Positions 1-38,045 of a stretch of 64,000 nt of DNA are shown here, piece after piece. Origin of the DNA: Candidatus Babelota bacterium (GTDB lineage Bacteria > Babelota > Babeliae > Babelales > JAUPTZ01); assembly GCA_030917815.1 (NCBI GenBank), contig JAUPTZ010000001.1:2102-66101 (forward strand). Direction: 5' to 3'. A model generated the notes under the pieces. The model did not search any database. It was not told the DNA's origin and saw only the letters and a list, made by a program, of their open reading frames with translations. Numbering within the stretch: the stretch's first letter is position 1; each line of letters opens with the position of its first letter. The position numbers and the translations under genes are program-made.

Positions 1-211
1 CCATTTTTTTATGCGCTTTGAGACAGAGTACTGCATATGCGGTGGCACCGATTCCGCTAACACCAGCGATTTTAGCCGAGCGGGTAGCAAAAAGGTTAGA
101 AATGTTTGAGGAAGATTCGGTGGCAGCAGTGCCGCTTATTGCGCTGAAGGGCATACCGAGCGATAGTGCGACGAGGACGAATAACGCATAGGTTTTATGT
201 CTCAATTGCAT
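1..211 (-). CDS. 5' part (first ~70 codons) of a membrane-anchored protein of the local leader family; the gene continues beyond the left window edge
   Basis: Not in the ORF track because there is no stop in the window. ATG at 211 is preceded by AAGGAA. The reverse-strand translation MQLRHKTYALFVLVALSLGMPFSAISGTAATESSSNISNLFATRSAKIAGVSGIGATAYAVLCLKAHKKM stays open to position 2. SAKIAGVSGIGATAYAVLCLKAH parallels VAKVAGVSGVAALVLIALCVKAH of the 32564 protein. Confidence 0.55.
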   Translation of the reverse strand, partial: MQLRHKTYALFVLVALSLGMPFSAISGTAATESSSNISNLFATRSAKIAGVSGIGATAYAVLCLKAHKKM

Positions 212-310
212 ACGGTTCCTTGGCTAGCGGTTTAAGGATAAATGGTTACAATATGTATCTATTCTAGCGTATTCTCCCTAAAAAATACAATAGTTAATCC
301 GGTAGCTGCC

Positions 311-3300
311 TTAGGCGGCGATGGCCGCTTGAGGGGATTTTGGAGTGTCTGCAGGAGTGTTAGATGAAGGGGCATCATCGCTAAAAATAGCGGTAACATC
401 GGCAACCACTTGTTGATCATCGCTCAGTGGGGCATCGTTTGCGGTTGGGGGTGCCGTTTTTATTGTGCTGCTTGGTGTGGCTACCGTCACAAAATCACCC
501 GGGTTAAGTGATTTTAAGAAATCGGCAGATGATTCTGGTACTGGTCGTTTGGCTTCTGCGGCAGGGGCTGCTGCGGTGGTGCTTGGTACTGCAACACCGG
601 TTGATGCGGTGGTGGCCACCGCTTCTTCAGGAGTAGCTTTCATCAAAGCGGCAATCGTCGGCGGTAGATAGCGTGGATCTGATGGGTCGGTTACCGGAGG
701 TTCTTCTTTTGGCGCCGTTGCTATTTGTATGCCGGCTACTTTTTTATTTGCTTTTGGACTGGTAATGGCTTGTGCATCAATAACTGTAATGTTTTCGTAC
801 AATACATTAGTACTACCGCTGCTTAACGCAAAGTACGCGACAGTGTCTGGTGAGTCCGGCTTTGGATTATTCCAAGAGAAGAGCTCTTTGCTGTGAGGGT
901 CGCCGGTACCAACGCTGATCGTGTTGTTTTGGTAGGTAATCCAGAGTGATTTGGTTATTGGTTTGACCGTTACATCAAATTTTCCTGCAACCGTATCTTT
1001 ATCCATGATGACCGACTTGGTATTTTTCCATCCACCAAGGATAACGGCGTAGCGTGGCATCATGCTTGGTATATTGTTGAGGCCAATGTAGACCTCACCG
1101 TTTGATGCGGTGACGTCACAGGTGAGTGTTTGCCCCATTTTGAGTTTCCAGTGTGGATTCCAGGTAAAAACTCCTTGTTTATTATAAGAGTTGTAGATCG
1201 AATTAACTGGCCATGAAATACCTTTGACTGAGGCCATTTGTTCTACGGTAATCATTTGATCGTTAGCGGCCAGTGCATAGTAGATGATTCCTCTATCGGC
1301 CTCAATCGTATCATCATGCCAGAAGAGGAGGATGTTGGTCCCCGGTTTGTCTCCCAGACCAACGCAGACGCTGCCGTGGTCATAAAGCACCCAATAAAAA
1401 GCCGGAACATATTGATTTTTGATAACTGCATTGGCGCTATCAATTGCGGCAACTACGCTTCCATTTGACTTGATAACCGTACGGCTATTTTTATCGGCAC
1501 CGATAACGACTTCGTAGAGTGGTGTGCCTCCGGTACTATTATGCAGCCCTATGCAGAGGTCATTAGCGCCTCGAGCTTTGAGAACGATGCCTCCAAAATC
1601 GGACTGAAGGAGTCGCCATGTTTGGTCAAACTTATATTTTCCTCGGTTGGCCGGTATAACGTACTGATCTACTTTTTCTTGTTTGGCAACCGGCAGGTTC
1701 TGTATGTTGCTGTAGCGTACGTTGCTGGCATCGCTGCTGAAACTAAAATAGGTCGCCTCACTGCTCATGCTATCTTTCCAGTCAAGGAAGGTTTTTACAC
1801 CCGGTTTGTTGCCGGCGCCAACGCTGATATGATCTTCATTGAAAATTACCCAGTACGTGCTTGCATGACTAGGAACGCTGACAACGCCTCGTGCATCGGT
1901 AATCGATTCAACAATATTCCCTTGTTTTTTTATCTGTGCGCCGGTGTTTTTATTGGCACCAATAATTACTTCAAACAACGGGTTTGCCAGTGTTGCAAGT
2001 TTGTTGTCGAGTCCAAAGTAGTAAGGCCCGTCTCCTTGGACATCAAAGACAATGCTGCCTGCACTGTTAGCGCTCAACTTCCATTTATCTGAGAAGGTGT
2101 AGGTGCCTTTACGCATATTGGCCGAAAAACTGGTATTTCTTTTAAGTACACTGGTTGAAGATCTTTGGCTTTCAATAGTGCGATACGTTGCTTGGCCGGT
2201 ACTGCTGCTTACCGAAAAGCGTTGCATGATATCAACCACATTAATATTTTGGTAATCGGCTAAGAGCGAGTCATTATTTTGGGTTGTTCCTTGACCCACT
2301 GCAATGTACCCTTTATCAAAAACAATCCAGAATGCTTGAAAATCTTCTTTACTTACGAGTGGTTGGCTGCCGAGTTCACTCGTCGCTACGAGGACGCCAT
2401 TTTGTGTGATGGTGCAATTTTTGCCAATTTTAATGACATAGGTCGGTTCTGCTTTAGTGCCGGTAAGGCCGATAACTGCTTCGCTGTCGGTTTTTACTTC
2501 AAAGGTTATGAGGCCTTGTTCCGGCTTTGCCAGGGCCCATGGCGATAACCAATTAAACACTCCTTTTTCTTGGCACGCGCTATACGTCTGGTAAGCCGGC
2601 ATTGCATTGCCGGGGAGTTGGGTGGTGTCTTGGTAGGTTGCATCGCCGTTGGCGCTTGCTAAGGCAAAATGGGTAATCTCTTTGGCCGGCTCTCGGTCAA
2701 GCCATTCCAGGACCGTATTTTTATGAGGATCGCTATTACGCCCCACGGTGAGATGTCCTTTATGGTAGCTAATCCAAAATCCATAAAAATTGTCACCGTC
2801 TGGCAACAATGCATCGCTATCGGTGCTTCGTGCTACGACAGTCTTGTTTTTGCGCACAGTTGCTTCTTTACCGTTTATAAATACTTCGTATACGGCACCG
2901 CTTTTTTGGTTGCCAATGCCTATACACAGAGTGCCTGATGAGCGTGCATTCAAAGTCATGATACCTGCGTCTGGTTTATGAAGTTTCCAGGCCTCTTCCC
3001 AGACGTAAGTAGCGGTTGGTTGCGGGGTATGAGTGGTATAGGCTTCTGCAAGCAATGCATCACCATATTCGGTAACAATGATCGGATCTTTGGGATCAAG
3101 AGCGGCAATTTTTTTGCAATATAAGGAAGCTTGCGTTTGATTGCCTATAGCAAATGAGGTGAATGCCGGTTTCGCCGGCAGTGTTGTCTGCCCAATAATA
3201 TCTTTTTGCGTGACCGGGCCATGGCCATAGGCGAGCGCGCCAGTGGCTTTATTGTAATGTACCCAATAGGGATAAAAATTAAAGGGATCGGTTATGTAGG

Positions 3301-5497: not shown

Positions 5498-5722
5498 CAG
5501 CTTTAAATTTTTCTTTACGCCAAACAGGTGGATCAGTAGAAAGAGGTCAAGTGATCCTTGTACGACATTTTTTATCGAACATCTGAATGCTGCACCATCA
5601 ATTCTAAAAACTTCAAAAGCTGCGGTGATGATACCTTTGACCGCAATGGTCAGTCCTTTGGTTATTTCTTCGTTAGCTTTAAATGCGGCCCATGCAGTAA
5701 TTAAGGTTCCTTGCGCGACGTA

Positions 5723-7414: not shown

Positions 7415-7418
7415 GGTG

Positions 7419-18122: not shown

Positions 18123-18842
18123 ATGTCAGGTCATTCTAAATGGGCGAATATTAAGCATAAAAAAGAAAAAGAAGATATTAAGAAGGGTAAGGTATTTACC
18201 AAGCTCGTGCGTGAAATAACGATTGCTGCTCGTGATGGTGGTGGCGATCCGGCTATGAATATTCGGCTACGTCTTTTTGTTGATAAGGCAAAAGCGGCCA
18301 ACATGCCGAGTGACAATATTACTCGGGCTATCAAAAAAGGTACCGGTGAGATTGCCGGCAATGCCTATGAAAGCATTTCGTACGAAGGATATGGACCGCA
18401 CGGGGTTGCAGTGATTGTGGAAGCGTTAACCGATAATAAGAATCGCACCGCTTCTGAAGTGCGTCATGCCTTTGGTAAAGGAGGAGGCAGTTTGGGCGGT
18501 GACGGGAGCGTTTCCTGGATGTTTGCACGTCGCGGTGTGGTCACCTTGCATGCAACCACCAAGAGCGAGGATGAGCTTCTTGAGATTTTCTTGGAACACA
18601 ATATTGATACTATTGATATTGACGAGAATCAGGTGCGTATTGTTGGCGAACCATCGGAGCTCTTTGTTATTAAGGCAACGGCCGACAAAGCCGGTCTGAA
18701 AGTCGATACGGTACAACTCGAGTGGATACCAACTACCTTTACGACGGTGACCGATCCGGTTGCTGAAGAGAAGGTGTATAATTTTTTGAGCATGCTGGAT
18801 GAGCTCGATGACGTACAGCACGTTTTTGCCAATATAGCCTGA
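18123..18842 (+). CDS. yebC: YebC/PmpR family DNA-binding regulator
   Basis: Canonical N-terminus MSGHSKWANIKHKK at ATG 18123; the ORF-track start 18105 adds 6 aa. Family motifs EGYGPHGVAVIVEALTDNKNRT are present. Confidence 0.9.
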   Translation: MSGHSKWANIKHKKEKEDIKKGKVFTKLVREITIAARDGGGDPAMNIRLRLFVDKAKAANMPSDNITRAIKKGTGEIAGNAYESISYEGYGPHGVAVIVEALTDNKNRTASEVRHAFGKGGGSLGGDGSVSWMFARRGVVTLHATTKSEDELLEIFLEHNIDTIDIDENQVRIVGEPSELFVIKATADKAGLKVDTVQLEWIPTTFTTVTDPVAEEKVYNFLSMLDELDDVQHVFANIA

Positions 18843-18860
18843 GGCCTTACTACTGGGCTG

Positions 18861-18915
18861 CTGGATTGCCGCGGCTTTATAGAAAAAGCCTCGCAATGAC
18901 GGCAGTAGCCGTCTA
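18861..18915 (+). repeat. intergenic palindromic repeat module M1, copy 1
   Basis: CTGGATTGCCGCGGCT...AGCCTCGCAATGACGGCAGTAGCCGTCTA matches 38410..38461. It contains the hairpin GACGGC-N4-GCCGTC. Confidence 0.8.
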
Positions 18916-18953
18916 TAGAGTTTAGAGTAGGATAATATATCGCTAATTAATAT

Positions 18954-19002
18954 GCGCGTCATCACGAGGGCTGCCTTGTCAGCCAGTGGTGATCCAGGTA
19001 GA
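18954..19002 (+). repeat. intergenic palindromic repeat module M2, copy 1
   Basis: GCGCGTCATCACGAGGGCTGCCTTGTCAGCCAGTGGTGATCCAGGTAGA matches the two halves of 38278..38387. It can form the hairpin TCATCAC..GGCTG/CAGCC..GTGGTGA. Confidence 0.8.
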
Positions 19003-19016
19003 ATAAATCCAGAATG

Positions 19017-19046
19017 CTCCTCGCAATGACGGCGAACGCCGTCGTG
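19017..19046 (+). repeat. partial third copy of the M1 core (CCTCGCAATGACGGC-N3-GCCGTC)
   Basis: CTCCTCGCAATGACGGCGAACGCCGTCGTG. Confidence 0.7.
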
Positions 19047-19139
19047 GGAAACAAGTACATTGAACCGCGCTGCCCGTGGGCAGTTCGTCTCATATCAACT
19101 ATGAAAGATGGTAAGCGAATGAAACTTCAAGAGAATTCT

Positions 19140-20030
19140 ATGATTACCAGCATGACCGGCTTCGCTAATGTCTCGGTTATTTTACTTGAGCATAATGGTG
19201 AGCAATGTAGCGTTGATATCGAAATAAAAACCTTTAATTCAAGGTTTTTTGAGCCGACCTGCAAGATGCCTAACGCGTTGAGTTCCTACGAGATGGATCT
19301 GATTTCACGTATGAAAAGTGGCCTTATCCGTGGTCGTGTCTACTGTACGGTACGGATTAACAGCCACGGTGCGTTGCTTGAGAAAACCGTTTTTTCACCG
19401 GTTCGCGTTGAAGAATATCTTGAAGCCAGTGCCTATATGAAAAAGCAGTTCGGGCTTGATGGTCAACTGACTATTGCCGATATGATGAATTTGCCACAGG
19501 TGTTCTCTTCTGAGCGCGCTGCGTTATCCGATGACGCGGTTGCCCGATTTTTGGCCGGCGTTGATCAAGCGGTTGCTCAGGTTATTGTTGCTCGCAAGCA
19601 GGAGGGCAAGAGTCTCTTGGTTGATTTGAGTAATCGATTAGTGGTTATTGTAAAGACGATGACCGAAATCGAAGCGTTGACCGCTCGTTTATTGGTGGCT
19701 CAGAAAGAGGAAGTTGCGCGTTGTCAGCAATTAGCACAGGAGGGTGACGAGGCGGCTCGTGCCTTATTGCCTGAGCGACTACAGGCGCTTGATAAAATGG
19801 ATGTTCATGAGGAAATTGTACGTTTTGGTTCACACGTAAGCGCCATTGAGCGGTTATTGTCCGATACCGCTATGGAAAAAGGGCGTAAGCTCGATTTTAC
19901 CCTTCAAGAATTAATGCGCGAAGTGAATACGGTGACCTCAAAGTGTACTAATTACGAGATGAGCACCCGCGCGGTAGATATTAAGGTGGAAATTGAGAAA
20001 ATACGGGAACAAGTGCAAAACATTGTATGA
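19140..20030 (+). CDS. yicC: YicC family stress-induced protein
   Basis: N-terminus MITSMTGFA is typical of YicC. The C-terminal DUF1732-type motif GRKLDFTLQELMREVNTVTSK...IEKIREQVQNIV is present. The ORF-track start 19014 lies inside a repeat element and is unlikely. Confidence 0.85.
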   Translation: MITSMTGFANVSVILLEHNGEQCSVDIEIKTFNSRFFEPTCKMPNALSSYEMDLISRMKSGLIRGRVYCTVRINSHGALLEKTVFSPVRVEEYLEASAYMKKQFGLDGQLTIADMMNLPQVFSSERAALSDDAVARFLAGVDQAVAQVIVARKQEGKSLLVDLSNRLVVIVKTMTEIEALTARLLVAQKEEVARCQQLAQEGDEAARALLPERLQALDKMDVHEEIVRFGSHVSAIERLLSDTAMEKGRKLDFTLQELMREVNTVTSKCTNYEMSTRAVDIKVEIEKIREQVQNIV

Positions 20031-20093
20031 TGATAGGTGATGTGGCTAAGGTAGAGGGCGGGGTACCGGTGTCATGAGGTTCTGGGGGGAACA

Positions 20094-21809
20094 ATGAAAA
20101 AGCTACAAGTCTATCTAATATGCCTGGCTTCAATGCCAGCACTATTTGTTCATGCGCGGCATGATGCCGTCCTTGCTGGTGGATTGAGCGCGGCCGCTCT
20201 TTCAGGACTTGTTTTGGCGGTCGAGAAAGCCCGAGTTAATCGGTTAGAAGAGGAGGTGGGTCGGCTGCGTGCATCTGGTGCGAGCGAAGAAAGCATTCAA
20301 AGAATTCGTACGCAGATTGCAACGGTTCCTTTATATCACAAGGTAGCCCGTGTGGGCCTTCCGGTTGGTGGTATTCTTGCGGCGGCCGGATTTTTTATGC
20401 CGCAGTCGGTCGAGGGTAATCGAGATGCCGATTCGACTCAAGCTACTAATACGGTAGTGGTGGCGCCGGTTGTCACAAAGCGGCCGCTTGTTCCTACCGG
20501 TGATGGTGTGGCCAAACCTGATTCTAAACCAGATTCTAAGCCGGCAGTTAAGAAGCGCTCCGGTAAAGACGGCGAGCGGGCGATTGATGCTGATATTAGT
20601 GCGATGATTGATGCGGCGAGCGATCGCGGTGTGGCGGTGTCAAAGAAAACGTTTGTGCATGTGCCGGTTGCCGGTGATGGTAATTGTGGTTTCCATACTC
20701 TTGGTTTCTTTGCCAACATGCTTGATAGTGAAAGTTATGAGAAGAAGCTTTTTCGTGCTGAAGCGGGCGATATTGCCCAGATTCGTCGTTCAACCTACGA
20801 AAAAATGAAAGAATTGGTTGAGCAGGAATTAGCGGCACTTGATAAGGCCGGTATTCGTACCGTTCGCGACCTTGAAGATGCTAATAAAAAAGAGGCTTCC
20901 GGCTATCGGTATCCGTGGGTGGTACGCTTGGCAAGTAGATTTAATGATGCCGAGGTCTTTGGCTATGATTCCGGCTTGAGTCGTCAGGACGTATGCGAGC
21001 AACTGCTGCTAGGTGACCCGGACTGTATGAAGCAGGTAGCGGCTCGACTTAACCTCACCAGTCGATATAAGATGTCTGATGATCAAATTGTGGCGTCGAT
21101 GAGGTCTGTCGGGGGCGTTGGGGCCTTTTTTGAAGCGGTGGAGCAAGAGGTTGCTCAACGGCTTACGTCAAAGGTAAAAGTCTATGTTGGCCAGGTCTGT
21201 GCCGATATTGATGAATGTGCCGAGATGTCTGATGATCAAAAATTTATGTATATTAAACAGCATCCCGATCTTGCAGCCGCTCTGCTTAACCGCTTTGCGT
21301 TGCCTCGGTACACCGGTGCTATTAAGCCGGGCAGAACAGGAACTATTACCGAAGAGGATCATTTTGAGGTACACAGCGGTCTTTTGGATGATAAACGAGC
21401 AGTAAGCGCGCAGGCGTGGATCGGTATTTTGGCTCGCCGCCAAGCAAATACGCTTGAGCGTGCCGCATCTGAAGCGGTACCTCTGAGGCCGCTTGCCAAA
21501 AAGATGCTCGGGCACTATCGGCAGATAGTGGGCGAAGGGGAGAATGTTGTGCTTGCAAACAGCGAGCACGCATCGGCCTGGTTGGATAAAATTGAGTTTG
21601 ATGTTAAGGCTGAAGAGATGGAGCGCCCAATACTTATTTGGGAGCGTGATGGGAGTGGCTATAAGGTAGCCTCAATTTCTGGTAAGCAGTATTGGGAAAA
21701 ATGTGGCAAGGAAATGACCGAATGTATGCATGTACTGAATGAGGGGAATGGGCATTGGTCGGTCTTGGTTCCAGAAGCAGGGCTTCCTATGCCAATGATG
21801 GAAGAGTAA
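20094..21809 (+). CDS. membrane-anchored OTU-like cysteine protease (putative deubiquitinase), paralog 1
   Basis: Leader with three hydrophobic segments and a KPDSKPDSKP linker. Cys box HVPVAGDGNCGFHTLGF (OTU-type D-G-N-C) and C-terminal His box LNEGNGHWSVLVP are present. Confidence 0.6.
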   Translation: MKKLQVYLICLASMPALFVHARHDAVLAGGLSAAALSGLVLAVEKARVNRLEEEVGRLRASGASEESIQRIRTQIATVPLYHKVARVGLPVGGILAAAGFFMPQSVEGNRDADSTQATNTVVVAPVVTKRPLVPTGDGVAKPDSKPDSKPAVKKRSGKDGERAIDADISAMIDAASDRGVAVSKKTFVHVPVAGDGNCGFHTLGFFANMLDSESYEKKLFRAEAGDIAQIRRSTYEKMKELVEQELAALDKAGIRTVRDLEDANKKEASGYRYPWVVRLASRFNDAEVFGYDSGLSRQDVCEQLLLGDPDCMKQVAARLNLTSRYKMSDDQIVASMRSVGGVGAFFEAVEQEVAQRLTSKVKVYVGQVCADIDECAEMSDDQKFMYIKQHPDLAAALLNRFALPRYTGAIKPGRTGTITEEDHFEVHSGLLDDKRAVSAQAWIGILARRQANTLERAASEAVPLRPLAKKMLGHYRQIVGEGENVVLANSEHASAWLDKIEFDVKAEEMERPILIWERDGSGYKVASISGKQYWEKCGKEMTECMHVLNEGNGHWSVLVPEAGLPMPMMEE

Positions 21810-21814
21810 TGTTT

Positions 21815-23764
21815 ATGAAAAAATGGTTGGTACCTTGTTTGGTGGCAGTTGGTCTGGCGACAGCCCCCGTTAGTGCGTGGAGTAGTCGCCATGTGGTTGG
21901 CGCAAGTGGCGTGGGTGTGACTACGTTGGCCGGGATGGTCGTCTGGCTGACACAGAAGAAAATTAATCGTCTTGAGACTCGCTTGGCTCGTCTACAGCCA
22001 ACGAAGGCTCCGGTTACGCCGTTGGCAGCGATGTGCATGAAGCAGATTACTACCGAGATTGAGCGGCTTACCCTTATGCGCAATGTGGCCTTGCCTTTCT
22101 TGCCTATTGGGGTTGGCCTCATGGGCGGCGCCGGGCTTTCCTGGTGGCGCAATCGGGGTAAGGAGATCGAAGAATCGCCCGATTACCAACCGATTCATCC
22201 GAAGCCGGACGCATCCGGTAAGCGGTTGGGTTCACGTTTAGCTACGTGGACCGTTCCGCATGATTTACTGGCCGAGGTGTCGGCCGACGTGAATCGTAGT
22301 GCTGCCTATAAAGAGGCCGGGCTTACTGAGCACTGCTATTCGCAAGAAGGGCGATCCGGTACCGGTTTTATCGCGAAAAATGACGATGAGGCCGCGTTTG
22401 TACTGGCCGATATGATAGTTCACCACACGGAAAAGGGTCTGGTGGTGCCGGAGAGCTACTTTAATAATATTGATATGGATGGCAGTACCTTGGATTGTGG
22501 TTTCAACGCTATCAGTTTTTACCGTGGTTTGCGAAAGAATAAGAAATATGGACTTGCGCGCTATCGTGGCAGTGATATCGCAGAAGTGCGCCAAGCGCTT
22601 GCGGCAAAGATGAAAGAACGGGTTGAGGCCGAGTTGGCTCAATTGGAGAAGAGGGGCATTGGATATGTTGGTCTTTTTGAGCAAATCAATGAGCCTTGCT
22701 GGGTGGACGGCAAGGTAATGGCCGGAAGAGTGGGGCCTACTATTCTGGGACTCATTGATCGATTTAGTGATGCTGCGGGTGGAGATGTTCTTTCACGATC
22801 GGTCGTTGGTCTAGAGCTTTTTAAGGAGCATGCGGCGGCGGCGCACGAGGTTGTTGCGAGGCTGGATCTTGCGCGGCGGTATGGCAAAACAGAAGATGAA
22901 TTGGTTGAAATAATACAGAAATATGGATTTAGCAGGATGGTTGAGGCTGGCGAAACAAATCATGGGAAAGCGGTTGTTGCCGGGATCAATGAGTATTTGG
23001 TAGCGGCCTGCAAGGACGTACCGAGCGAGAAAGAAATGTCTGCGGAAGAGCGGTTCATGTATGTTAAGAGCCATCCTGAGTTAGCGGTTGCTATGGTTAA
23101 GCGGTTTGCGTTACCGTTTTATACCGGTGCACAAAAACCGAGTAAGCGCGGGGAGGCAATTACCGAAGAAGATGATGTTAAGGAGCTGCTAGATCGCTTG
23201 CATGAAGATCGCAATAAGAGCGCTGAGGCGTGGATAAAAAACCTTGCTTTTCGTGAGACCAGTGCGATCGATGAGGCGGCTTATAAAAATTGTGTAAAGC
23301 TCCGCCCACTTGTCGAAAAAATGCTTCATTATTACGAAGAAAATGTGGGCAAAGGGAAAACCTCATTTGAGGGGCATAGGCGATCCCGGTTCTTGGAAAG
23401 GACCGAACTTGATAATGAGGCCGAGATTGTGGGACGGCCTATTGTGCAATGGACTCATGTTGATGGGCACTATGTGGTAGCTTCGGTTTCTGGGGGGCGA
23501 TACTTTGAAGCGGTAGGTAAAAAGATGAGCGAGTGTATGCATATGCTCAATGAAGGTAACGGTCACTGGCGTGCATTGGTTCCGGCTAAAAATGATGATT
23601 TAACCGTAGAGAGAGTAGTGCCGGCCGCTTTCGCCGACCTTGCTGATGGTTGGGAAGATTGGATGGGGTACGATTCCTTCGACGATTTTAGCGTTGATAG
23701 CGAGGATCTCGATGAAGAAGAGTCGGAACGGTCTGACACAGAGGCTAAAGGAGCGGCAGCTTAG
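21815..23764 (+). CDS. membrane-anchored OTU-like cysteine protease, paralog 2
   Basis: Starts MKKWLVPCLVAVGLATAPVSA; an ATG at 21809 overlapping the upstream TAA (TAATG) is also possible. Cys box DGSTLDCGFNAISFY and His box LNEGNGHWRALVP are present. It is collinear with 20094..21809 and has an acidic C-terminal tail. Confidence 0.55.
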   Translation: MKKWLVPCLVAVGLATAPVSAWSSRHVVGASGVGVTTLAGMVVWLTQKKINRLETRLARLQPTKAPVTPLAAMCMKQITTEIERLTLMRNVALPFLPIGVGLMGGAGLSWWRNRGKEIEESPDYQPIHPKPDASGKRLGSRLATWTVPHDLLAEVSADVNRSAAYKEAGLTEHCYSQEGRSGTGFIAKNDDEAAFVLADMIVHHTEKGLVVPESYFNNIDMDGSTLDCGFNAISFYRGLRKNKKYGLARYRGSDIAEVRQALAAKMKERVEAELAQLEKRGIGYVGLFEQINEPCWVDGKVMAGRVGPTILGLIDRFSDAAGGDVLSRSVVGLELFKEHAAAAHEVVARLDLARRYGKTEDELVEIIQKYGFSRMVEAGETNHGKAVVAGINEYLVAACKDVPSEKEMSAEERFMYVKSHPELAVAMVKRFALPFYTGAQKPSKRGEAITEEDDVKELLDRLHEDRNKSAEAWIKNLAFRETSAIDEAAYKNCVKLRPLVEKMLHYYEENVGKGKTSFEGHRRSRFLERTELDNEAEIVGRPIVQWTHVDGHYVVASVSGGRYFEAVGKKMSECMHMLNEGNGHWRALVPAKNDDLTVERVVPAAFADLADGWEDWMGYDSFDDFSVDSEDLDEEESERSDTEAKGAAA

Positions 23765-23921
23765 TCATCTTTTATACTAATGGAATCATGTGTTTTGGGG
23801 GAAAGCCGAAACTTTTTCTCCAAATTATTCCAGCTTTGTGATAGTCTCTGCTATTATTGTAAAGTGTATGTTACGTTTTTTGCCTAGTAAATTGTTTTTT
23901 CAGCCTTTGTTTGGGGGATGT

Positions 23922-26150
23922 ATGTTACGAGATAAAATTTTTATAATGCTAGCCGCCGTTTTTGTGAGCGGTTTTGTGGTTAATGAGTGTTCGGCCATGG
24001 ACCGTGACGTGTACGGTGCGCAACAGGCGTATATAGCTGCTTCGCAGCTTGCTAACGCAGAAGTACAGAATCTGCGAGCTTCGGCGGTACAGGCTAGAGC
24101 TGACTTGGATGCAGCGGTTGCAAATGGTCGGGCTCGGCTTGATCAATTGAAACGTGATGCTGAGGCCGCGGCCCAGCGAGCGGCAGCGGACGGTGTTGAT
24201 GCGTTGAAAGGCCAAGTGCAACAACAAATTCGGGCAGAACAACAGAGAGTAACTCAAGCGATTCAGGAGTGTGAGCGGAAAAAGCAGGAGCTCGCAGCTG
24301 ATTATGAAGAAAAGAAGCGAGGTTTGACTCGCGAGGTTGAGCAAAAGCGAAGAGAATTTGAAGAAGCAAACAGGCGGTTTGTGGAGCAGCATAAGCAAAC
24401 AACCGAAGCTGATCGTAGAAAAGCCGAGGAAATGCAACGTGCAAAGATTGCTGCGGACGAAAAGTTGCAGCAAGATCAGCAGGCATTTTTGCGAGCTGAG
24501 GCAGATGCTGGACCTGGCCGTCTTAAAGCACTCGAAAAAACTAAACTTGAGGCAGAGCAAGCAAAGCACTTGCAAAAAGTTCAGTTCGATCGTGATAATG
24601 CTGAGAACACCGCAATGCAAGCGTTGAGAATAGAAGCGCTTAAGGGCTCTGCGCTGCGTAAGGGTACCCCAACCGCCGCAGAGCTAGAAGCGGCACCGTA
24701 TAGTGATGAAGATGGTTATGATTACGACGCAATCATTGCCAAAATCAGAGCCGGAGGCACCGACGAGGATGCTTTGCGAGCTGACAAGATGCTTGAGCGC
24801 CGCCAAATTCAGCAGTCGATGGCCGATTATGAGCTTTTCAAGCGCTCTGCCGAAATTTCAGCCGAAGCAAAAATGTTAGAAGACAAAGAAATACAGGCGT
24901 ACGAAGCGGCATTGTTGCCGAAGCGTATTGCGGCACAAGCGGCAAAAGATATTCAAGAGCAAAAAGTTGCTGAAGTGTCGGCGCGTGAAACGGCGTTGAT
25001 GAACAACAAGTTTAAGCCGCTTGAATATAGAAATAACAAAGAAATGCTTAAGATGAAGATGGAAGGGCTCATGAACCTTGCCAAGATGGTTGGTGATGGG
25101 TTTACGCCTAAGAATGTTGCCCTTGCCGCTGCCGGTATCGGTGGTACTTACGGATTGGTCAAGTTGCTTGGCGTTGGTTCCCGTCAGTTGGAACGTATCC
25201 TGAAGCAACCGGTGTTGGTCCGTCATTCTTCACAAGGTGGTCCATTGACTAAGCTATTCCGTTCTATTTTCCCTAAAAAATCTGATCACGCTACCTACCA
25301 TTTGAGCGATATGATCTTGAACCCAGATCTTGCTAAAAAGCTTGAGCGGATTTCAAACATGATCAAGCTGGCTCAACAACATGGCGCACCATTGCCTGGT
25401 GTGGTGGCTTACGGTCTACCGGGTAACGGTAAGACGATGTTCATGGAAGCATTGGCAAACGATTCTGGTATGAACTTTGCAATGATGACCGGTGGCGACG
25501 TATCTGCCTTGCTTTCAAGCGGTGGTAAGAACGCGGCCGTTACCGAAATTCATAAGTTGTTTGACTGGGCAATTACCGCCGGACCAACATTGTTGTTTAT
25601 CGACGAAGCCGATGCGTTCCTTAAGAAAGGCCGTGATGCTAAGTTGAGTGAAGGCTTGGCCGCTGCGATTAACGCCTTCTTGAACCGTACCGGTGCTTCA
25701 AGCAACAAGGTGATGATTGTGTTGGCTACTAACCATCCACACGTGTTCGACGAAGCGGTGGCAAGTCGTATGTCGATCTGGGTTAACTTCCCAGCTCCTG
25801 GCTTTAACGAACGTGCTAAGATGTATGTTAAGTTCCTTGATGACGTGGTTAATGAAGGTGTGGGCGACGATCATACCCCAGTGGTTATTGTACCGGAAGC
25901 TCGTTCAGAAAACTTCGTTCAAGAAGTGGCAAAACGTACCGATGGCTACTCAGGTCGTGATATGACCCGTAAGATCTTCGACTCGTTGCAACGTGAAATG
26001 CTTGCCGAAGGTAAGTTCCAAGTAGATCGTTCGCTCATTATGCAAACGTTGAATGAGATCGATGCACAAGAAAAAGAATTGAACTCGTTTAACACCGTTG
26101 GAAACAATGGTTCGAGTTTCGTCAATCATGCGGCCGCTATCGCTGCGTAA
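23922..26150 (+). CDS. ATAD3-like protein: N-terminal hydrophobic segment, long coiled coil, central TM, C-terminal AAA+ ATPase
   Basis: ATG 23922 is preceded by GGGGGA. The AAA core GLPGNGKTMFMEALANDSGMNFAMMTGGDV...HKLFDWA...LLFIDEADAFLKKG...NAFLNRTGASSNKVMIVLATN closely matches my recollection of eukaryotic ATAD3 ([76 protein letters not shown]). The TM and juxtamembrane region ALAAAGIGGTYG...ILKQPVLVRHSS parallels ATAD3 ...ILGQPSLIRESS. Confidence 0.8.
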   Translation: MLRDKIFIMLAAVFVSGFVVNECSAMDRDVYGAQQAYIAASQLANAEVQNLRASAVQARADLDAAVANGRARLDQLKRDAEAAAQRAAADGVDALKGQVQQQIRAEQQRVTQAIQECERKKQELAADYEEKKRGLTREVEQKRREFEEANRRFVEQHKQTTEADRRKAEEMQRAKIAADEKLQQDQQAFLRAEADAGPGRLKALEKTKLEAEQAKHLQKVQFDRDNAENTAMQALRIEALKGSALRKGTPTAAELEAAPYSDEDGYDYDAIIAKIRAGGTDEDALRADKMLERRQIQQSMADYELFKRSAEISAEAKMLEDKEIQAYEAALLPKRIAAQAAKDIQEQKVAEVSARETALMNNKFKPLEYRNNKEMLKMKMEGLMNLAKMVGDGFTPKNVALAAAGIGGTYGLVKLLGVGSRQLERILKQPVLVRHSSQGGPLTKLFRSIFPKKSDHATYHLSDMILNPDLAKKLERISNMIKLAQQHGAPLPGVVAYGLPGNGKTMFMEALANDSGMNFAMMTGGDVSALLSSGGKNAAVTEIHKLFDWAITAGPTLLFIDEADAFLKKGRDAKLSEGLAAAINAFLNRTGASSNKVMIVLATNHPHVFDEAVASRMSIWVNFPAPGFNERAKMYVKFLDDVVNEGVGDDHTPVVIVPEARSENFVQEVAKRTDGYSGRDMTRKIFDSLQREMLAEGKFQVDRSLIMQTLNEIDAQEKELNSFNTVGNNGSSFVNHAAAIAA

Positions 26151-26167
26151 TACGACGATATAATTTT

Positions 26168-26201
26168 AAAGCGGGCCTGTGGGAAACCATGGGCCCGCTT
26201 T
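26168..26201 (+). terminator. hairpin terminator after the ATAD3-like gene
   Basis: AAAGCGGGCC...GGCCCGCTTT gives a 10-bp stem 18 nt after the stop; the T tract is weak. Confidence 0.6.
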
Positions 26202-26310
26202 GCGTTTGGCCGTATTGATTATTGTGTGTATTGTGTCACACCAAAGTAGTTCTTTCACAACATTCCCCCACACAATATTGTCACAAGCGTGTCATGTTTG
26301 AATCCGAAAT

Positions 26311-26439
26311 CGTGAGGCGATCGCGCACCAGGGCTACCACAGTCGCTCAAACATACATTTGAGACCTCCCCCCGATGGGGGAGATGAAAGTCTCAAGCCG
26401 TAACTCGCTTTGTGTGGCACCCTGGCTTACGCTTACCGC
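26311..26439 (-). repeat. ~110-130-nt structured intergenic element, copy A (inverted relative to copy B)
   Basis: The reverse complement aligns by eye with 30597..30700 through CAGGGTGCC, GCGAGTT, CGGCTTGAG, ATCTCCCC..GGGGAGG and TGGTAGCCCTG. The central hairpin is CTCCCC/GGGGAG; the ends are CAGGG(T/C)..(G)CCCTG. Confidence 0.7.
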
Positions 26440-26704
26440 ATTAAACATTGAACTTTTATTAAATCACCAGTGGCACAACGCTGCATGACTAATGGCCTGC
26501 GCAGAGCAGCTGAGCAATGGGGGTATGCTCTGCAAAACGCGAGTATCGGGGAGCGTGCAGAGCCGTACCCCTTGCGAGCATTCAGCAGGCCCTAAAGGGA
26601 GTGATATTTTTATTCTGGTAGAGTTGTGACACTATCACGTTGGTAAGACAGTTATTGTATGTACTGTTGAATTTATTACCCAAATCTCTTACGCTACAAT
26701 CATT

Positions 26705-34233: not shown

Positions 34234-34290
34234 TTGGTCTGTGTAAAAATCTGTTTTGATTCTTAATACTAGGTTAGGAAAGAGCGATCT

Positions 34291-36135
34291 ATGAAGAAAA
34301 TGTATCGATTACTACTCTTAACGGTCGCGGTGTTTGTAGCGCCGTGCACTTCTTTGCAGCCCAATGTGCGCGTTATAGGTGGTGTTTCAGTTGCAGCGGC
34401 AGCTGCTTTGGTAACGGGGCGGTATATTGTTGCCAATAAAAATCTTGCGGGAGCCAGGGAGCGACTGCATGAGGCTTTGAGGCCACTACCGGTCCTGATA
34501 ACCGATGGGGGAGAGGTTGCCGAGCATGTGGCTGGTATGCAGGCACAACCCGACTATATCATACAGAAGGCGCGGCGTGGGGTTGAGGTAGCGCAGAAAG
34601 AATTTGATCGTGTCGATAAGGTTCTTAAGGGGTTTATTGCGATCTTTGGTGTTGGGGTAATTGTGCTAGCTATTCGTCATATGATGGCTCCGGAATCTGA
34701 GGATGCCTCATTACTCGGTACCGTGACAGGCGGAAAGCCGGCTACAAAGCCAACGAGCGATGATACAAAGCCACTTGTGGTGACGCCACCAGTAATCGAT
34801 GATACAAAGAAACCAGATGAAGAGAAACCAGATGATAAGCCTGGTGCGATAGAGCCACCGGTAGTTGTGGTTACGCCACCAGTAGTTGTGGTTACGCCAC
34901 CAGTAGTTAAACCGTTGACCCCTGCAGAGCAACGTGCTGCCGATATTGCAGCAAGGGAGGCCGCGCTCCAGGCAGAGCATACGAGAAAGATGCAGGAGGC
35001 AGAGCGCAGGCGGCAGGAAGAGTATGCCAAAGACGAGGAAGATCGGAGATTAGCGCGAATTGCCGATGCCAAAGAGGAGCGAGAAGCGAGAGCGGCAGAG
35101 CGTGAAGCGGAGCGGATACGTGCTGAAAAAGAAAAGCCAATGCGGGATTTCATGGCCGCACTTGATGAGGCGCAGAGAGGAAAGCCATCAGATCTTGATC
35201 AGTATAGGAAGCTGGATTACATGAAAGAAATGAATGCACTTGGTGATCGGCGTAATCTTCAAGAAATTGTTCAAAAAATCGGGGCAATGCCAGAGCCGGA
35301 GCGAATGATGCTTAGGCAACGGATATTGGCTGCGAGTGGAAGAGGGCCGTTTCTTTCCCGATTCCGCGCAAAGGATTTGAAGGCCGATGACGTTGAAATT
35401 TTGCGGCAGCTTCTTAATGTGGTTGATGTCGGGCCCAATGCTTGGATGGTTGAGCGCGATAGATCTTTTGAGCCGATTAAAAGATTTGATGATATTGCAG
35501 TCGGCGAGACCCAAGAGGCTTTTGATGCTTCTACTAATGTCGCGCAGGATTTTGCGGCCCAAATAGATCTTGCCGTTTTGCTGAGAAGCAGAAATATTGC
35601 CTTTTCTCTAAAAACACCAAATGGCAGCGTATTGTGCAGCAACGAAGGTATAGAATTTGACGTAGACACCATGCGCTACCGTAGCCGTGATTGGAGTGAT
35701 AGAAGTAATTTCAAACCGGATGGTACTTTTAGGCATAGGGTAATTGAGCGATTGAACCAGTATGAAGCGGCTAAAAGTAAGCTCGGTGCTTGTATTGCTA
35801 GCGGAGATATAGAAGGATTTAAGGCAGAATTAGCGAGACATCCGAAGCTTGATATCGATTGTCCGGTGGCGGAGTATCAGTATCAACCACTGCTTCTTCT
35901 TGCGGTGGGATCCGATAACGATCACCATCGTGAGTTTGTGACCGCTTTGCTTGAGCGTGGGGCCAATCCACGCATTGTTGCGTCTAATAATGGTGCTATT
36001 TTCGCGGCACGCCAGGCGGCAGCGCAGCATTATGATGTACGATTGAGCGACGATAGGCAAAGTGATAAGTACCGTGAGTATCAAGAGGTTCGTGAAGATC
36101 TGCGGGTAGCTGTTCTTGCGCAGCAGCTAGTATAA
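34291..36135 (+). CDS. membrane-anchored protein with a PPVVVVT repeat, an E/R-rich coiled coil and a weak C-terminal ankyrin-like repeat
   Basis: Leader MKKMYRLLLLTVAVFVAPC plus TM segments. Contains EAERRRQEEYAKDEEDRR. The ANK-like stretch is PLLLLAVGSDNDHHREFVTALLERGANPRI. Confidence 0.7.
   Translation: MKKMYRLLLLTVAVFVAPCTSLQPNVRVIGGVSVAAAAALVTGRYIVANKNLAGARERLHEALRPLPVLITDGGEVAEHVAGMQAQPDYIIQKARRGVEVAQKEFDRVDKVLKGFIAIFGVGVIVLAIRHMMAPESEDASLLGTVTGGKPATKPTSDDTKPLVVTPPVIDDTKKPDEEKPDDKPGAIEPPVVVVTPPVVVVTPPVVKPLTPAEQRAADIAAREAALQAEHTRKMQEAERRRQEEYAKDEEDRRLARIADAKEEREARAAEREAERIRAEKEKPMRDFMAALDEAQRGKPSDLDQYRKLDYMKEMNALGDRRNLQEIVQKIGAMPEPERMMLRQRILAASGRGPFLSRFRAKDLKADDVEILRQLLNVVDVGPNAWMVERDRSFEPIKRFDDIAVGETQEAFDASTNVAQDFAAQIDLAVLLRSRNIAFSLKTPNGSVLCSNEGIEFDVDTMRYRSRDWSDRSNFKPDGTFRHRVIERLNQYEAAKSKLGACIASGDIEGFKAELARHPKLDIDCPVAEYQYQPLLLLAVGSDNDHHREFVTALLERGANPRIVASNNGAIFAARQAAAQHYDVRLSDDRQSDKYREYQEVREDLRVAVLAQQLV
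34856..34909 (+). repeat. 21-nt coding tandem repeat (about 2.5 copies)
   Basis: CCACC(G/A)GTAGTTGTGGTTACG repeated, encoding PPVVVVT. Confidence 0.9.
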
Positions 36136-37319: not shown

Positions 37320-38045
37320 TTAATTACGATCAAAAAGGGCGAAGAGGGCAAAGCGCAACAACTCGGTGCGCTTTTTTTCAGGCAATCGGGTAAATGGCTC
37401 ATTTCCCTTAATATCAACGAGGTCGAGGCGGGCATGGTTCTTTATGAGGAGATGAGCAAACTGTATATAGAGTGCGCCGGCTTTCCCATGAAGGTGAAGT
37501 GGCGTTTGGCCGAGGTCGTTTTGCGCGTCGACATGGGCGCCGGCAATAAGAAGAATCTCAGCGATTTTTAATGTTTTTGCGGTGAGGTGTGTGGCTACGA
37601 CGTGGAGTGGGGTGTTGCCATATTCATCGCGGAGCACCGGGTTGGCACCATGGGTCAGCAGGAATGTGGCAATCGCTACATCTCGATTGATGATGGCGAT
37701 GATTAAGGGCGATAGCCCGTCACGCATAGTGTCAATGTTGGCACCTTGCGCTATAAGACGGGCTATCATTTGGGGGATACGCTTGTTCTGCACGGCGCTT
37801 AAGAGCGCGTCGTCTAGGGTGTTTTGAGCCGAATGCAAAGCGGCCTGTATTCTAGGCGAGCTTAGGACGTCGGTTGTTTCTCCAATAGGGCCTTCATGAA
37901 TCTCATGGATAGACCGCTTATGGTACACCACTTGTTGCCCCAGCGCGCTGCTACAAAGGTAGGCAGGCGCAGGCAACTGCACATTTTTACGTTTCATTAT
38001 ACGTTTCTCCATTTTTCTCGTGTCGTGTTGTGTTAGGCACTTCAC
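37320..38045 (-). CDS. ankyrin-repeat protein
   Basis: Three or more clear ANK repeats (LIAQGANIDTMRDGLSPLIIAI; FLLTHGANPVLRDEYGNTPLHVVA; LLIAGAHVDAQNDLGQTPLHL). Confidence 0.85.
   Translation of the reverse strand: MKCLTQHDTRKMEKRIMKRKNVQLPAPAYLCSSALGQQVVYHKRSIHEIHEGPIGETTDVLSSPRIQAALHSAQNTLDDALLSAVQNKRIPQMIARLIAQGANIDTMRDGLSPLIIAIINRDVAIATFLLTHGANPVLRDEYGNTPLHVVATHLTAKTLKIAEILLIAGAHVDAQNDLGQTPLHLHGKAGALYIQFAHLLIKNHARLDLVDIKGNEPFTRLPEKKRTELLRFALFALFDRN

What the first reader, a model, noticed from the sequence alone, without database searches (positions are those of the whole stretch)
1..36135. Reusable N-terminal signal/TM leader cassette fused to unrelated effector-type domains
At least six genes start with the same architecture. 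A signal-like hydrophobic segment is followed by a 10-25 aa linker and then a G/A/V/S-rich TM helix ending in basic residues. The helices are: 1..211(-) SAKIAGVSGIGATAYAVLCLKAHKK; 32564 VAKVAGVSGVAALVLIALCVKAHSD; 34291 VIGGVSVAAAAALVTGRYIV. Also 20094 VLAGGLSAAALSGLVLAVEKARVNRLEEE; 21815 VVGASGVGVTTLAGMVVWLTQKKINRLETR; 14135 RRIAAGAMGVAGLLALLHYYRTRRR. Four of them continue with a short charged helix and a third hydrophobic segment (VGLPVGGILAAAGFF, LPIGVGLMGGAGLSWW, ALGFTGLVLLYTWI, FIAIFGVGVIVLAI). A low-complexity P/K/A/E linker follows, and only then comes the C-terminal OTU-like, ankyrin or ADP-ribosylglycohydrolase domain. A swappable-cargo membrane-targeting cassette recalls, in logic but not in sequence, the chlamydial Inc proteins. 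I do not recognise it as a described family. It could mark a dedicated export or host-membrane-insertion route.
Basis: partly seen in the sequence, partly recalled or inferred. Interest (0 to 1): 0.85.

Follow-up and report, generated by a model that had tools for sequence, protein, structure and literature searches.

The report
Shared membrane-anchor layout, not one cassette
Several proteins of this protist-parasite-type bacterium (phylum Dependentiae) begin with a secretion signal followed by a two-helix membrane anchor ahead of eukaryote-like domains, but the anchors fall into unrelated sequence groups, and the best-defined one always travels with the same deubiquitinase-like enzyme rather than being swapped between cargos.

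Summary
Genes C (20094), D (21815), E (32564) and F (34291) each have a Sec-type signal peptide, a G/A/S-rich helix followed by basic residues, a 41-70 aa charged loop, a second helix, a low-complexity spacer and then a C-terminal domain. A (1-211, minus strand) is cut off by the window edge. B (14135) has only one helix after an uncertain signal.

It is not one reusable cassette. Only A/E and C/D are detectably homologous, and profile-profile comparison between groups gives 1.8% probability.

The C/D anchor is a conserved, unannotated N-terminal domain. In every relative found it sits on the same OTU-like cysteine-protease domain. This held in neighbouring Dependentiae genomes and in an exhaustive search of 1.84 billion proteins. 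These genes occupy a fixed locus (yebC-yicC-[1-4 copies]-pgsA-pgpA-gyrA).

Charge distribution predicts a cytoplasmic loop and an exported C-terminal domain. The most likely mechanism is Sec/YidC insertion of a hairpin anchor that tethers OTU or ankyrin domains outside the inner membrane. How they reach the host is unknown.

The closest functional analogue is Chlamydia Cdu1 (TM, flexible linker, deubiquitinase). These are not Inc proteins. I rate this a new variant of a known kind, of moderate interest.

The parts
20094..21809 (+). Gene C (571 aa). Signal peptide aa 1-21 (nt 20094-20156). TM1 aa 25-43 (20166-20222). Basic/charged loop aa 44-86. TM2 aa 87-102 (20352-20399). P/K/S-rich spacer. 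OTU-like domain with Cys motif GDGNC (20673-20696) and His motif GNGHW (21744-21773).
21815..23764 (+). Gene D (649 aa), tandem paralogue of C. Signal peptide 21815-21877. TM1 21893-21949. TM2 22091-22147. OTU-like Cys motif 22484-22507 and His motif 23555-23584. Acidic C-terminal tail.
   Evidence: (C-D z=17)
32564..34174 (+). Gene E (536 aa). Signal peptide 32564-32632, 20-aa linker, TM1 32693-32743, 41-aa loop, TM2 32867-32908. A/E/K-rich coiled-coil-like spacer (aa 117-260). Ankyrin repeats at aa 415-505.
34291..36135 (+). Gene F (614 aa). Signal peptide 34291-34353. TM1 34372-34419. 70-aa loop. TM2 34630-34674. Pro/Val/Lys/Thr-rich spacer 34687-34926 (20% Pro). Charged helical stretch. 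The C-terminal domain is unidentified.
1..211 (-). Gene A, first 70 aa only; it runs off the window. Signal peptide 140-211. TM1 20-76 followed by KAHKK. Its N-terminus is homologous to that of E. TM2 and cargo are unknown.
   Evidence: (A-E z=13). Attempts to recover the flank failed.
14135..15544 (+). Gene B (469 aa by the longest ORF; 462 aa in a public gene call). Hydrophobic N-terminus without a basic n-region (14153-14209). A single G/A-rich TM (14303-14356) flanked by RR and RTRRR. ADP-ribosylglycohydrolase domain at aa 103-438. There is no TM2, so it shares only part of the architecture and its cargo is probably cytoplasmic.
   Evidence: L021 gene call; no HMM match
18123..30432 (+). 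Conserved locus frame: yebC (18123-18842), yicC (19014-20030), the OTU-cassette genes C and D, then in this genome only the AAA+ gene G (23790-26150), then pgsA (26705-27247), pgpA, gyrA (27763-30432). Relatives hold 1-4 cassette-OTU genes at the same slot.

Best explanation
These are lineage-specific membrane-anchored exported proteins of a Dependentiae (TM6/Babeliales-like) bacterium. They share an architecture but not, as far as can be detected, a common cassette.

Proposed mechanism. The N-terminal Sec-type signal peptide and the closely following G/A/S-rich helix TM1 insert together as a procoat-like hairpin. The signal peptide is cleaved by signal peptidase I, which leaves TM1 with its N-terminus outside and its C-terminus inside. 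The basic, helical 21-70 aa loop stays in the cytoplasm. TM2 then acts as an internal signal-anchor running from inside to outside. SecYEG exports everything downstream of TM2: a 56-285 aa Pro/Ser/Thr/charged spacer and the folded domain (OTU-like cysteine protease in C and D, ankyrin repeats in E, unknown in F). The result is a hairpin anchor in the inner membrane that holds a eukaryote-like domain on a long flexible or extended stalk on the outer side. From there the domain could face the host, given the degenerate outer membrane reported for Babeliales.

In the C/D family the anchor is a conserved domain in its own right. Its motifs are [RK]-W-G-G-x-G at the start of TM1, K/R-x-x-L-E after TM1, R-N/S before TM2, and a small-small-small-aromatic-W-P ending of TM2. 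It has been inherited together with the OTU domain and amplified by tandem duplication at a fixed chromosomal slot.

Shown here: the architecture, the charge asymmetry, the family limits, the synteny and the OTU-like motifs. Inferred: signal cleavage, the topology, any enzymatic activity and any exposure to the host.
For: Organism: GyrA is 82-85% identical to Dependentiae/Babeliales MAGs.

Architecture and signal sites: hydropathy and canonical small-x-small sites after the h-region in C, D, E and most relatives.

Topology, summed over 16 proteins: the 10 aa after TM1 hold 53 K/R against 13 D/E; the 10 aa before TM2 hold 38 against 19; the 20 aa after TM2 hold 32 K/R against 45 D/E. By the positive-inside rule this puts the loop in the cytoplasm and the C-terminus outside. 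The AF2 model of C shows two long helices (aa 22-60 and 65-97) forming a hairpin, at moderate to low pLDDT.

Family behaviour of the C/D type. The cassette HMM finds L002 x4 and L004 at E from 1e-20 to 1e-38. An exhaustive hmmsearch of 1.84e9 representative proteins returns only 12 hits at E<=1e-3. Eleven belong to this family, and the nine that include the N-terminus carry the cassette; all complete ones are cassette+spacer+OTU. For P0009, P0010, P0011 and P0013 the best-scoring stretch is the cassette itself. Mean pairwise identity between genomes is 23% for the cassette and 19% for the OTU region.

Synteny: yebC-yicC-[OTU genes]-pgsA-pgpA-gyrA is seen in the window, L002, L027, L028 and L029.

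OTU identity.

Literature context. [quoted passage not shown] TM6 genomes share a type II secretion system with two gspD copies and a degenerate outer membrane, especially in Babeliales (PMC4776705).
Against: No topology or signal-peptide predictor could be run (SignalP, DeepTMHMM), so cleavage and orientation rest on rules of thumb.

One or two K/R residues sit immediately before TM1 (27 K/R against 7 D/E in the short signal-TM1 loops). This fits an N-out TM1 less comfortably.

TM1 is only marginally hydrophobic (mean KD 1.6) and might not integrate stably.

An inner-membrane tether does not explain how a ubiquitin-directed enzyme would meet host ubiquitin. No outer-membrane translocation step is identified.

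The OTU assignment is statistically modest (PDB profile E about 1e-3; Foldseek E 0.03-0.4 on a pLDDT-56 model; no Pfam hit).

The failure to detect homology between groups does not prove independent origin, because short TM-rich regions diverge quickly. F gives a weak hit to the C/D profile (E=0.0016 among 1017 ORFs).
Confidence: 0.55

Rival explanations
1. One homologous, mobile N-terminal leader cassette has been fused repeatedly to unrelated effector domains and marks a dedicated export or host-membrane-insertion pathway.
For: The same order of elements occurs in four sequence groups within one clade. A and E share a cassette (z=13), and E's cargo is ankyrin while A's is unknown. F shows a weak match to the C/D cassette profile (E=0.0016). 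The C/D cassette is as conserved as the catalytic domain, which suggests a function beyond passive anchoring.
Against: hhalign probability between groups is 1.8%. Non-circular HMM tests are negative. The C/D cassette is never found on a non-OTU cargo in 1.84e9 proteins. No secretion-system gene is linked in the window or in related loci. A pattern scan of metagenomes for the A/E TM1 motif found only chance matches.
Confidence: 0.12
2. The hydrophobic helices are not bacterial membrane anchors but host-membrane anchors, as in Inc proteins or Cdu1. The protein leaves the bacterium (for example after Sec export and release, or in vesicles), and the marginally hydrophobic, glycine-zipper-like hairpin inserts into a host or vacuolar membrane, displaying the OTU or ankyrin domain to the host cytosol.
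For: TM1 is G/A/S-rich and has low hydrophobicity (KD 1.6 against 2.0; about 3.5 small-xxx-small motifs against 1.2 in polytopic TMs). From my own knowledge, such properties are reported for TM-containing secreted effectors that avoid inner-membrane capture. The cargo is eukaryote-directed (OTU, ANK). Cdu1 of Chlamydia is an N-terminally TM-anchored deubiquitinase with a flexible linker, located at the inclusion membrane (PMC5370187). Outer-membrane vesicle-like buds were reported in Chromulinavorax (PMC6561590).
Against: A canonical cleavable Sec signal directly before TM1 and the strong positive-inside pattern around the loop are what co-translational insertion into the bacterial inner membrane predicts. 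No T3SS or T4SS is known as core in the phylum (PMC4776705). No mechanism is known for extracting a two-TM protein from the inner membrane.
Confidence: 0.18
3. They are ordinary envelope proteins with bacterial (periplasmic) functions. They would be TolA/TonB-style inner-membrane-anchored proteins whose spacer spans the periplasm, with papain-fold or repeat domains acting on bacterial substrates rather than as host effectors.
For: An anchor plus Pro-rich or charged spacer plus C-terminal domain is the TonB/TolA layout. F gives a weak, sub-threshold TolA match in its charged region (E=0.005). From my own knowledge, signal-bearing ankyrin proteins can be periplasmic in other intracellular bacteria. 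The genes sit among housekeeping genes at a fixed locus.
Against: The best matches of the catalytic domain are ubiquitin/ISG15-specific OTU proteases. The family is restricted to a host-dependent clade, varies in copy number (1-4) and diverges quickly (19-23% identity), which is typical of host-interaction genes. The TolA hit is compositional and far below the family cut-off.
Confidence: 0.12
4. There is no real feature. The pattern is generic signal peptides plus chance hydrophobic stretches in a proteome where nearly half of all proteins carry signals.
For: Signal peptides are very common in Dependentiae (44% of CDS in Chromulinavorax) and in this window. B fits only loosely.
Against: Most signal-bearing proteins of the window lack the closely following TM1/TM2. 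The layout is absent from control loci. The C/D cassette is conserved across genomes at E down to 1e-38 and is specific in a search of 1.84e9 proteins.
Confidence: 0.03

Closest known systems
Chlamydia trachomatis Cdu1/ChlaDUB1 (membrane-anchored deubiquitinase effector)
   Same: An N-terminal transmembrane anchor, then a long flexible region, then a C-terminal cysteine-protease deubiquitinase domain, in an obligate intracellular bacterium (PMC5370187).
   Different: Cdu1 has a single TM and no Sec signal. Its protease is of the CE clan (Ulp1-like), not OTU. It sits in the inclusion membrane. There is no sequence similarity. Here there is a signal peptide plus a two-helix hairpin with a 21-70 aa cytoplasmic loop.
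Chlamydial Inc proteins
   Same: The logic of a hydrophobic hairpin attached to varied soluble domains in an intracellular bacterium.
   Different: From my own knowledge, Incs have a bilobed hydrophobic domain with a very short inter-TM loop and a T3SS signal, and no cleavable Sec signal. Here the loop is 21-70 aa and basic, a canonical signal peptide precedes it, and there is no sequence similarity or Pfam match.
Bacterial and viral OTU deubiquitinases (nairovirus vOTU, Wolbachia wMelOTU, Legionella and Chlamydia OTUs; Schubert et al. 2020)
   Same: The catalytic Cys (D-G-x-C) and His (H-W) motifs and the fold-level resemblance of the C/D cargo.
   Different: The described bacterial OTUs are predicted T3SS/T4SS substrates, and that survey mentions no Dependentiae, TM or signal peptide (PMC7396840). 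The family here carries a Sec signal plus hairpin anchor and a large helical insertion between the Cys and His motifs. It does not reach the Pfam OTU threshold.
Signal-peptide-bearing ankyrin and C65 peptidase proteins of Dependentiae (Chromulinavorax destructans)
   Same: The same phylum. Eukaryote-like domains carry Sec signals, and C65 (otubain-family) peptidases are noted as secreted or membrane bound (PMC6561590).
   Different: That paper reports signal peptides in bulk. The conserved signal+TM1+loop+TM2 domain, its motifs and its fixed locus are not described there. Homology of those proteins to C or D was not tested here.
TonB/TolA-type inner-membrane-anchored periplasm-spanning proteins; M13 procoat-type hairpin insertion
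   Same: An N-terminal anchor plus a Pro-rich or charged spacer plus a C-terminal domain. A signal peptide closely followed by a TM that ends in basic residues is the procoat layout (my own knowledge).
   Different: TonB and TolA have one uncleaved TM and partner proteins (ExbBD/TolQR). The only match is a sub-threshold, compositional TolA hit for F.

Membership tests
Chlamydial Inc proteins | Bilobed hydrophobic domain: two TM helices separated by a very short loop | tested here: not met
   The inter-TM loop is 21-70 aa and rich in K/R and D/E.
Chlamydial Inc proteins | N-terminal type III secretion signal, no cleavable Sec signal, and a T3SS in the genome | tested here: not met
   Canonical n/h/c signal peptides with small-x-small sites are present. 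No T3SS gene lies in the window. TM6 core genomes are reported to have a T2SS and type IV pilus only (PMC4776705). The whole genome was not available.
OTU deubiquitinase fold (Pfam PF02338) | Catalytic Cys motif and general-base His motif in the right order and secondary-structure context | tested here: met
   Cys198, His554 and Trp555 are invariant in 8 family members. Both motifs align to nairovirus OTU structures. In the AF2 model the Cys starts a helix and the His lies in a strand.
OTU deubiquitinase fold (Pfam PF02338) | Significant match to the family model or fold | tested here: inconclusive
   No Pfam hit at E<=0.01. The family profile against PDB OTUs gives E=8.5e-4. The top 50 Foldseek hits are all OTU domains, but at E 0.03-0.4 on a pLDDT-55.6 model.
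OTU deubiquitinase fold (Pfam PF02338) | Ubiquitin or ubiquitin-like isopeptidase activity | not testable with these tools
   Needs a biochemical assay.
Sec/SPase I signal peptide | Basic n-region, 10-15 aa h-region, small residues at -3 and -1 | tested here: met
   By inspection the criteria hold for C (VHA), D (VSA), E (VLA) and most relatives (VSA, GSA, LEA, INA, LAA, VAA, VNA). F (CTS) and A are less canonical. B lacks a basic n-region. SignalP was not available.
Single homologous 'leader cassette' family spanning A-F | Detectable sequence or profile similarity among all six N-termini | tested here: not met
   Only A-E and C-D are similar. hhalign gives probability 1.8%. HMM cross-searches are negative apart from F at E=0.0016.
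Single homologous 'leader cassette' family spanning A-F | The same cassette found on different cargo domains | tested here: not met
   The C/D-type cassette is found only on OTU cargo. A/E is undetermined because A is truncated.
Ankyrin-repeat protein (E) | Pfam Ank_2/Ank_4 above the gathering score | tested here: met
   Ank_2 scores 36.8 bits against a cut-off of 27.3. Ank_4 scores 23.4 against 22.7.
ADP-ribosylglycohydrolase (B) | Pfam PF03747 above the gathering score | tested here: met
   90.1 bits against a cut-off of 26.2, over aa 103-438.
TolA/TonB-type spacer proteins | Match to the family model above its cut-off | tested here: not met
   F against TIGR02794 tolA_full scores 16.1 bits, with a cut-off of 59.45.

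The most novel reading that the evidence does not exclude
The conserved C/D-type N-terminal domain (signal peptide, RWGG-type glycine-zipper helix, basic helical loop, G-rich helix ending in aromatic-W-P) may be more than an anchor. It could be a specific sorting, oligomerisation or translocation module. It would let a phylum without T3SS or T4SS deliver membrane-tethered deubiquitinases, and by convergence ankyrin proteins, to a host-facing membrane through a Sec-dependent route not yet described.
Probability: 0.15. Interest if true: 0.8.

Novelty: new variant of a known kind. Interest (0 to 1): 0.42.

Why it matters
Dependentiae are widespread, almost uncultured parasites of protists. They encode many eukaryote-like proteins with Sec signals but have no known effector-injection machinery, so how those proteins reach the host is an open question.

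This work defines a small, clade-restricted family of OTU-like proteases with a conserved signal-plus-hairpin anchor. The family sits at a fixed, tandemly expanding locus. That provides a concrete and testable handle: the topology, the localisation and the enzymatic activity can each be checked on one gene family.

It would also add a Sec-dependent, membrane-tethered type to the known bacterial OTU deubiquitinases, which so far are all predicted T3SS/T4SS substrates.

The work also corrects the more exciting reading. There is no evidence for a swappable leader cassette shared by unrelated cargos.

Tried and rejected
1. The search for homologous proteins with full-length E and with the cassette alignment A2 gave 0 hits. 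The 8000-candidate word filter was probably swamped by low-complexity words: C itself was not recovered although it is in the collection. These are therefore not evidence of absence. The OTU-domain alignment A6 did work.

3. A degenerate DNA pattern for the A/E TM1 motif in metagenome contigs gave 5 matches. All are chance matches in unrelated contigs of 55-68% GC.

4. I tried to recover the full gene A through exact look-up of the neighbouring 1728-aa gene, using two alternative starts. Neither is on record. A's TM2 and cargo remain unknown.

5. A viral-contig scan with C found nothing.

6. Grouping A/E with the ~250-aa family of L001/L002/L027 as one 'fam2' was rejected after non-circular HMM tests.

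7. A cassette-only profile built from the sequences I was allowed to submit (C, D, P0002, P0003) was too weak to find even the L002 paralogues. I therefore ran the exhaustive search with full-length sequences.

8. The AF2 model of F's C-terminal 334 aa was unusable (pLDDT 47.4), so no fold search was run on it.

9. E and F show no BLASTP similarity in any region.

10. A lipoprotein (lipobox) reading of the signals was rejected by inspection for the window genes C, D and F and for L002b.
Full report
**Source and context.** The window (about 48% GC) comes from a Dependentiae (TM6, Babeliales-like) bacterium. Its GyrA (27763-30432) is 82-85% identical to four Dependentiae/Babeliales MAGs and 61-64% identical to more distant TM6 MAGs. 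Identical proteins occur only on short Logan contigs from runs SRR24011136-50. The window mixes housekeeping genes (ruvB, yebC, yicC, pgsA, pgpA, gyrA, dprA, maf, sbcC, tgt, mraW, dnaA) with many signal-bearing or eukaryote-like proteins.

**Checking the observation.** Translation and hydropathy confirm the described strings and their order.
- C (20094), D (21815), E (32564) and F (34291) each have a signal-like N-terminus ending in a small-x-small site.
- A G/A/S-rich helix (TM1) follows and is itself followed by basic residues.
- Then come a 41-70 aa charged loop, a second hydrophobic helix (TM2) and a low-complexity spacer.
- A (1-211, minus strand) shows the signal and TM1 but is cut by the window edge.
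- B (14135) has only one G/A-rich helix, flanked by Arg clusters. Its upstream hydrophobic stretch has no basic n-region, and its start codon is uncertain (a public gene call starts 7 codons later).

Cargo assignments:
- Ankyrin in E and ADP-ribosylglycohydrolase in B are above Pfam thresholds.
- C and D have no Pfam hit. A profile of the family's C-terminal region matches nairovirus OTU structures at E about 9e-4, with the PGDGxC and His motifs aligned.
- Cys198, His554 and Trp555 are invariant across eight family members.
- All top 50 Foldseek hits of a low-confidence AF2 model (pLDDT 55.6) are OTU deubiquitinases, with weak E-values.
- F's C-terminal domain remains unidentified.

**Is it more than chance?** Other signal-bearing proteins in the window lack the adjacent TM1/TM2. 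A rule-based detector finds the full layout in 4 window genes, 5 genes of the 22.6-kb related locus L002 and 1 of L004. In about 190 kb of non-Dependentiae control loci it finds only two hits, both small membrane proteins of about 260 aa that look polytopic. The cassette helices are about 50% Gly/Ala/Ser with about 3.5 small-xxx-small motifs each. Polytopic TMs of the same window have 25% and 1.2, and TM1 is less hydrophobic than they are.

**Is it one cassette?** No.
- Smith-Waterman scores against shuffles show homology only for A-E (z=13) and C-D (z=17).
- Profile-profile comparison of the C/D-type cassette with a profile that pooled A and E with the ~250-aa family of L001/L002 gives probability 1.8%.
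- A 13-sequence C/D-type HMM does not detect E or B. It touches F only over signal+TM1 (E=0.0016 among 1017 ORFs).
- A ~250-aa look-alike family lies next to maf in L001, L002 and L027. It has the same layout but is not detectably related to A/E when tested non-circularly.

At least four sequence groups therefore share one architecture. Either they arose independently or they have diverged beyond recognition.

**The C/D group is a real, conserved family.**
- At the syntenic position (after yicC, before pgsA-pgpA-gyrA), L002 carries four tandem genes. L027 carries two, and L028/L029 one each. L004 holds a further member at the start of its short contig, upstream of gyrA.
- Every member read in full has signal, TM1, loop, TM2, spacer and OTU-like domain.
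- An exhaustive hmmsearch of 1.84 billion representative proteins with a full-length family profile returned only 12 proteins at E<=1e-3. Eleven belong to this family, and the nine that include the N-terminus carry the cassette.
- In four of the more distant hits the cassette is the best-scoring stretch.
- Between genomes the cassette is at least as conserved as the catalytic region (23% against 19% mean identity). Recurrent motifs are [RK]-W-G-G-x-G, K/R-x-x-L-E, R-N/S and G-G-x-x-A-G-[SA]-aromatic-W-P.
- No instance of this cassette on a different cargo was found.

Anchor and enzyme are thus one gene family, expanded by tandem duplication (1-4 copies), and not a shuffled module. Neither Pfam nor NCBIfam describes the N-terminal domain.

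**Likely mechanism.** The charge pattern is strongly asymmetric across 16 proteins:
- 10 aa after TM1: 53 K/R against 13 D/E.
- 10 aa before TM2: 38 against 19.
- 20 aa after TM2: 32 K/R against 45 D/E.

With a cleavable signal 3-26 aa before TM1, the simplest reading has three steps. The signal and TM1 insert as a procoat-like hairpin and the signal is cleaved. The basic helical loop stays in the cytoplasm. TM2 acts as a signal-anchor that exports the spacer and the C-terminal domain. The AF2 model shows two long helices (aa 22-60 and 65-97) consistent with a helical hairpin.

The product would be an inner-membrane hairpin anchor that holds an OTU or ankyrin domain on a 56-285 aa Pro/Ser/Thr/charged stalk on the extracytoplasmic side. 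B, with one TM and Arg clusters on both sides, would instead keep its enzyme in the cytoplasm and should not be grouped with the others.

Whether and how the exported domains meet host proteins is inferred, not shown. The literature reports the following:
- Dependentiae put Sec signals on 44% of CDS and 78% of ankyrin proteins, and have membrane-bound or secreted C65 peptidases (PMC6561590).
- They share a T2SS with two gspD copies and have a degenerate outer membrane, particularly in Babeliales (PMC4776705).

No secretion-system gene lies in the window.

**Comparison with known systems.**
- The nearest functional analogue is Chlamydia Cdu1: an N-terminal TM, a flexible region up to residue 167, and a deubiquitinase displayed on the inclusion membrane (PMC5370187). 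It has one TM, no Sec signal, and a protease of a different clan.
- Inc membership fails on loop length and on the presence of a Sec signal.
- The described bacterial OTU deubiquitinases are predicted T3SS/T4SS substrates, and that survey mentions no Dependentiae, TM or signal peptide (PMC7396840).
- TonB/TolA and M13 procoat are architectural analogies only. The TolA match for F is sub-threshold and compositional.

**Verdict.** The defensible finding is a clade-specific anchoring architecture that recurs in unrelated sequence groups. It includes one well-defined, previously unannotated family of signal-plus-hairpin-anchored OTU-like proteases at a conserved locus. I rate it a new variant of a known kind, with moderate interest (0.42). 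The residual exciting possibility is that the conserved hairpin is a specific Sec-dependent host-delivery module; I give that about 15%.

Noticed in passing
window 311-5497 (-): A 1728-aa protein with seven Methyltransf_FA (PF12248, DM9-like) repeats, E=5e-74. From my own knowledge this domain is mostly known from animals. It lies directly upstream of gene A on the minus strand.
   Followed up: no
window 23790-26150 (+): Gene G has a signal/TM, then about 350 aa of charged coiled-coil-like sequence, a G/A-rich hydrophobic segment (aa 443-461), and a classic-clade AAA+ domain most similar to p97/Cdc48 D2 (PDB E about 5e-27). The layout resembles ATAD3. It sits directly after the OTU pair in this genome, but not at that slot in L002, L027 or L028.
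   Followed up: partly
window 10743-12029 (-) and 12176-13489 (-): Two adjacent, mutually divergent trigger-factor-like genes. Only the first reaches Pfam Trigger_N/Trigger_C; the second looks similar by eye only.
   Followed up: no
window 43790-45826 (-): A PLA2_B-type lysophospholipase/phospholipase domain (E=1.3e-22), of the cytosolic-phospholipase-A2 type known from eukaryotes (my own knowledge). A signal-like segment follows an internal Met, so the start codon is probably downstream of the longest ORF.
   Followed up: no
window 37320-38045 (-) and 47654-50104 (+): An ankyrin-repeat protein and a leucine-rich-repeat protein with no signal peptide or TM hairpin. Eukaryote-like cargo in this genome is therefore not always on the anchor architecture.
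   Followed up: partly
L001:5394-6215 (-), L002:14539-15330 (-), L027:8993-9736 (-): A conserved ~250-aa family on the minus strand immediately after maf. It has signal peptide, ~26-aa linker, G-rich TM1, KHMKK, TM2 and a P/S/T/E-rich tail with no recognisable cargo. In the window, E occupies the position after maf on the plus strand, but it is not detectably homologous.
   Followed up: partly
L002:17922-20069 (+): Three tandem paralogues, each with a signal peptide and an internal hydrophobic segment, share a 'FFGKD..GR.F.KRIFRDK' motif. This is another clade-specific expanded family of unknown function.
   Followed up: no
window 57388-59400 (+) and 59428-60129 (+): Two adjacent signal-bearing proteins made largely of Asn/Ala/Thr/Gln/Gly low-complexity repeats. 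The first has a possible lipobox.
   Followed up: no
window 55205-56626 (-) and the whole window: dnaA is present, but GC skew stays positive across all 64 kb with no sign change near dnaA.
   Followed up: no
window 5497-5723 (-): The 226-bp gap between the stop of the 571-aa signal-bearing gene (5723-7438) and the GTG start of the 1728-aa gene contains several short ATG-initiated frames that end quickly. The true start of the large gene is uncertain, and neither of the two starts tried is on record in the public gene-call collection.
   Followed up: partly
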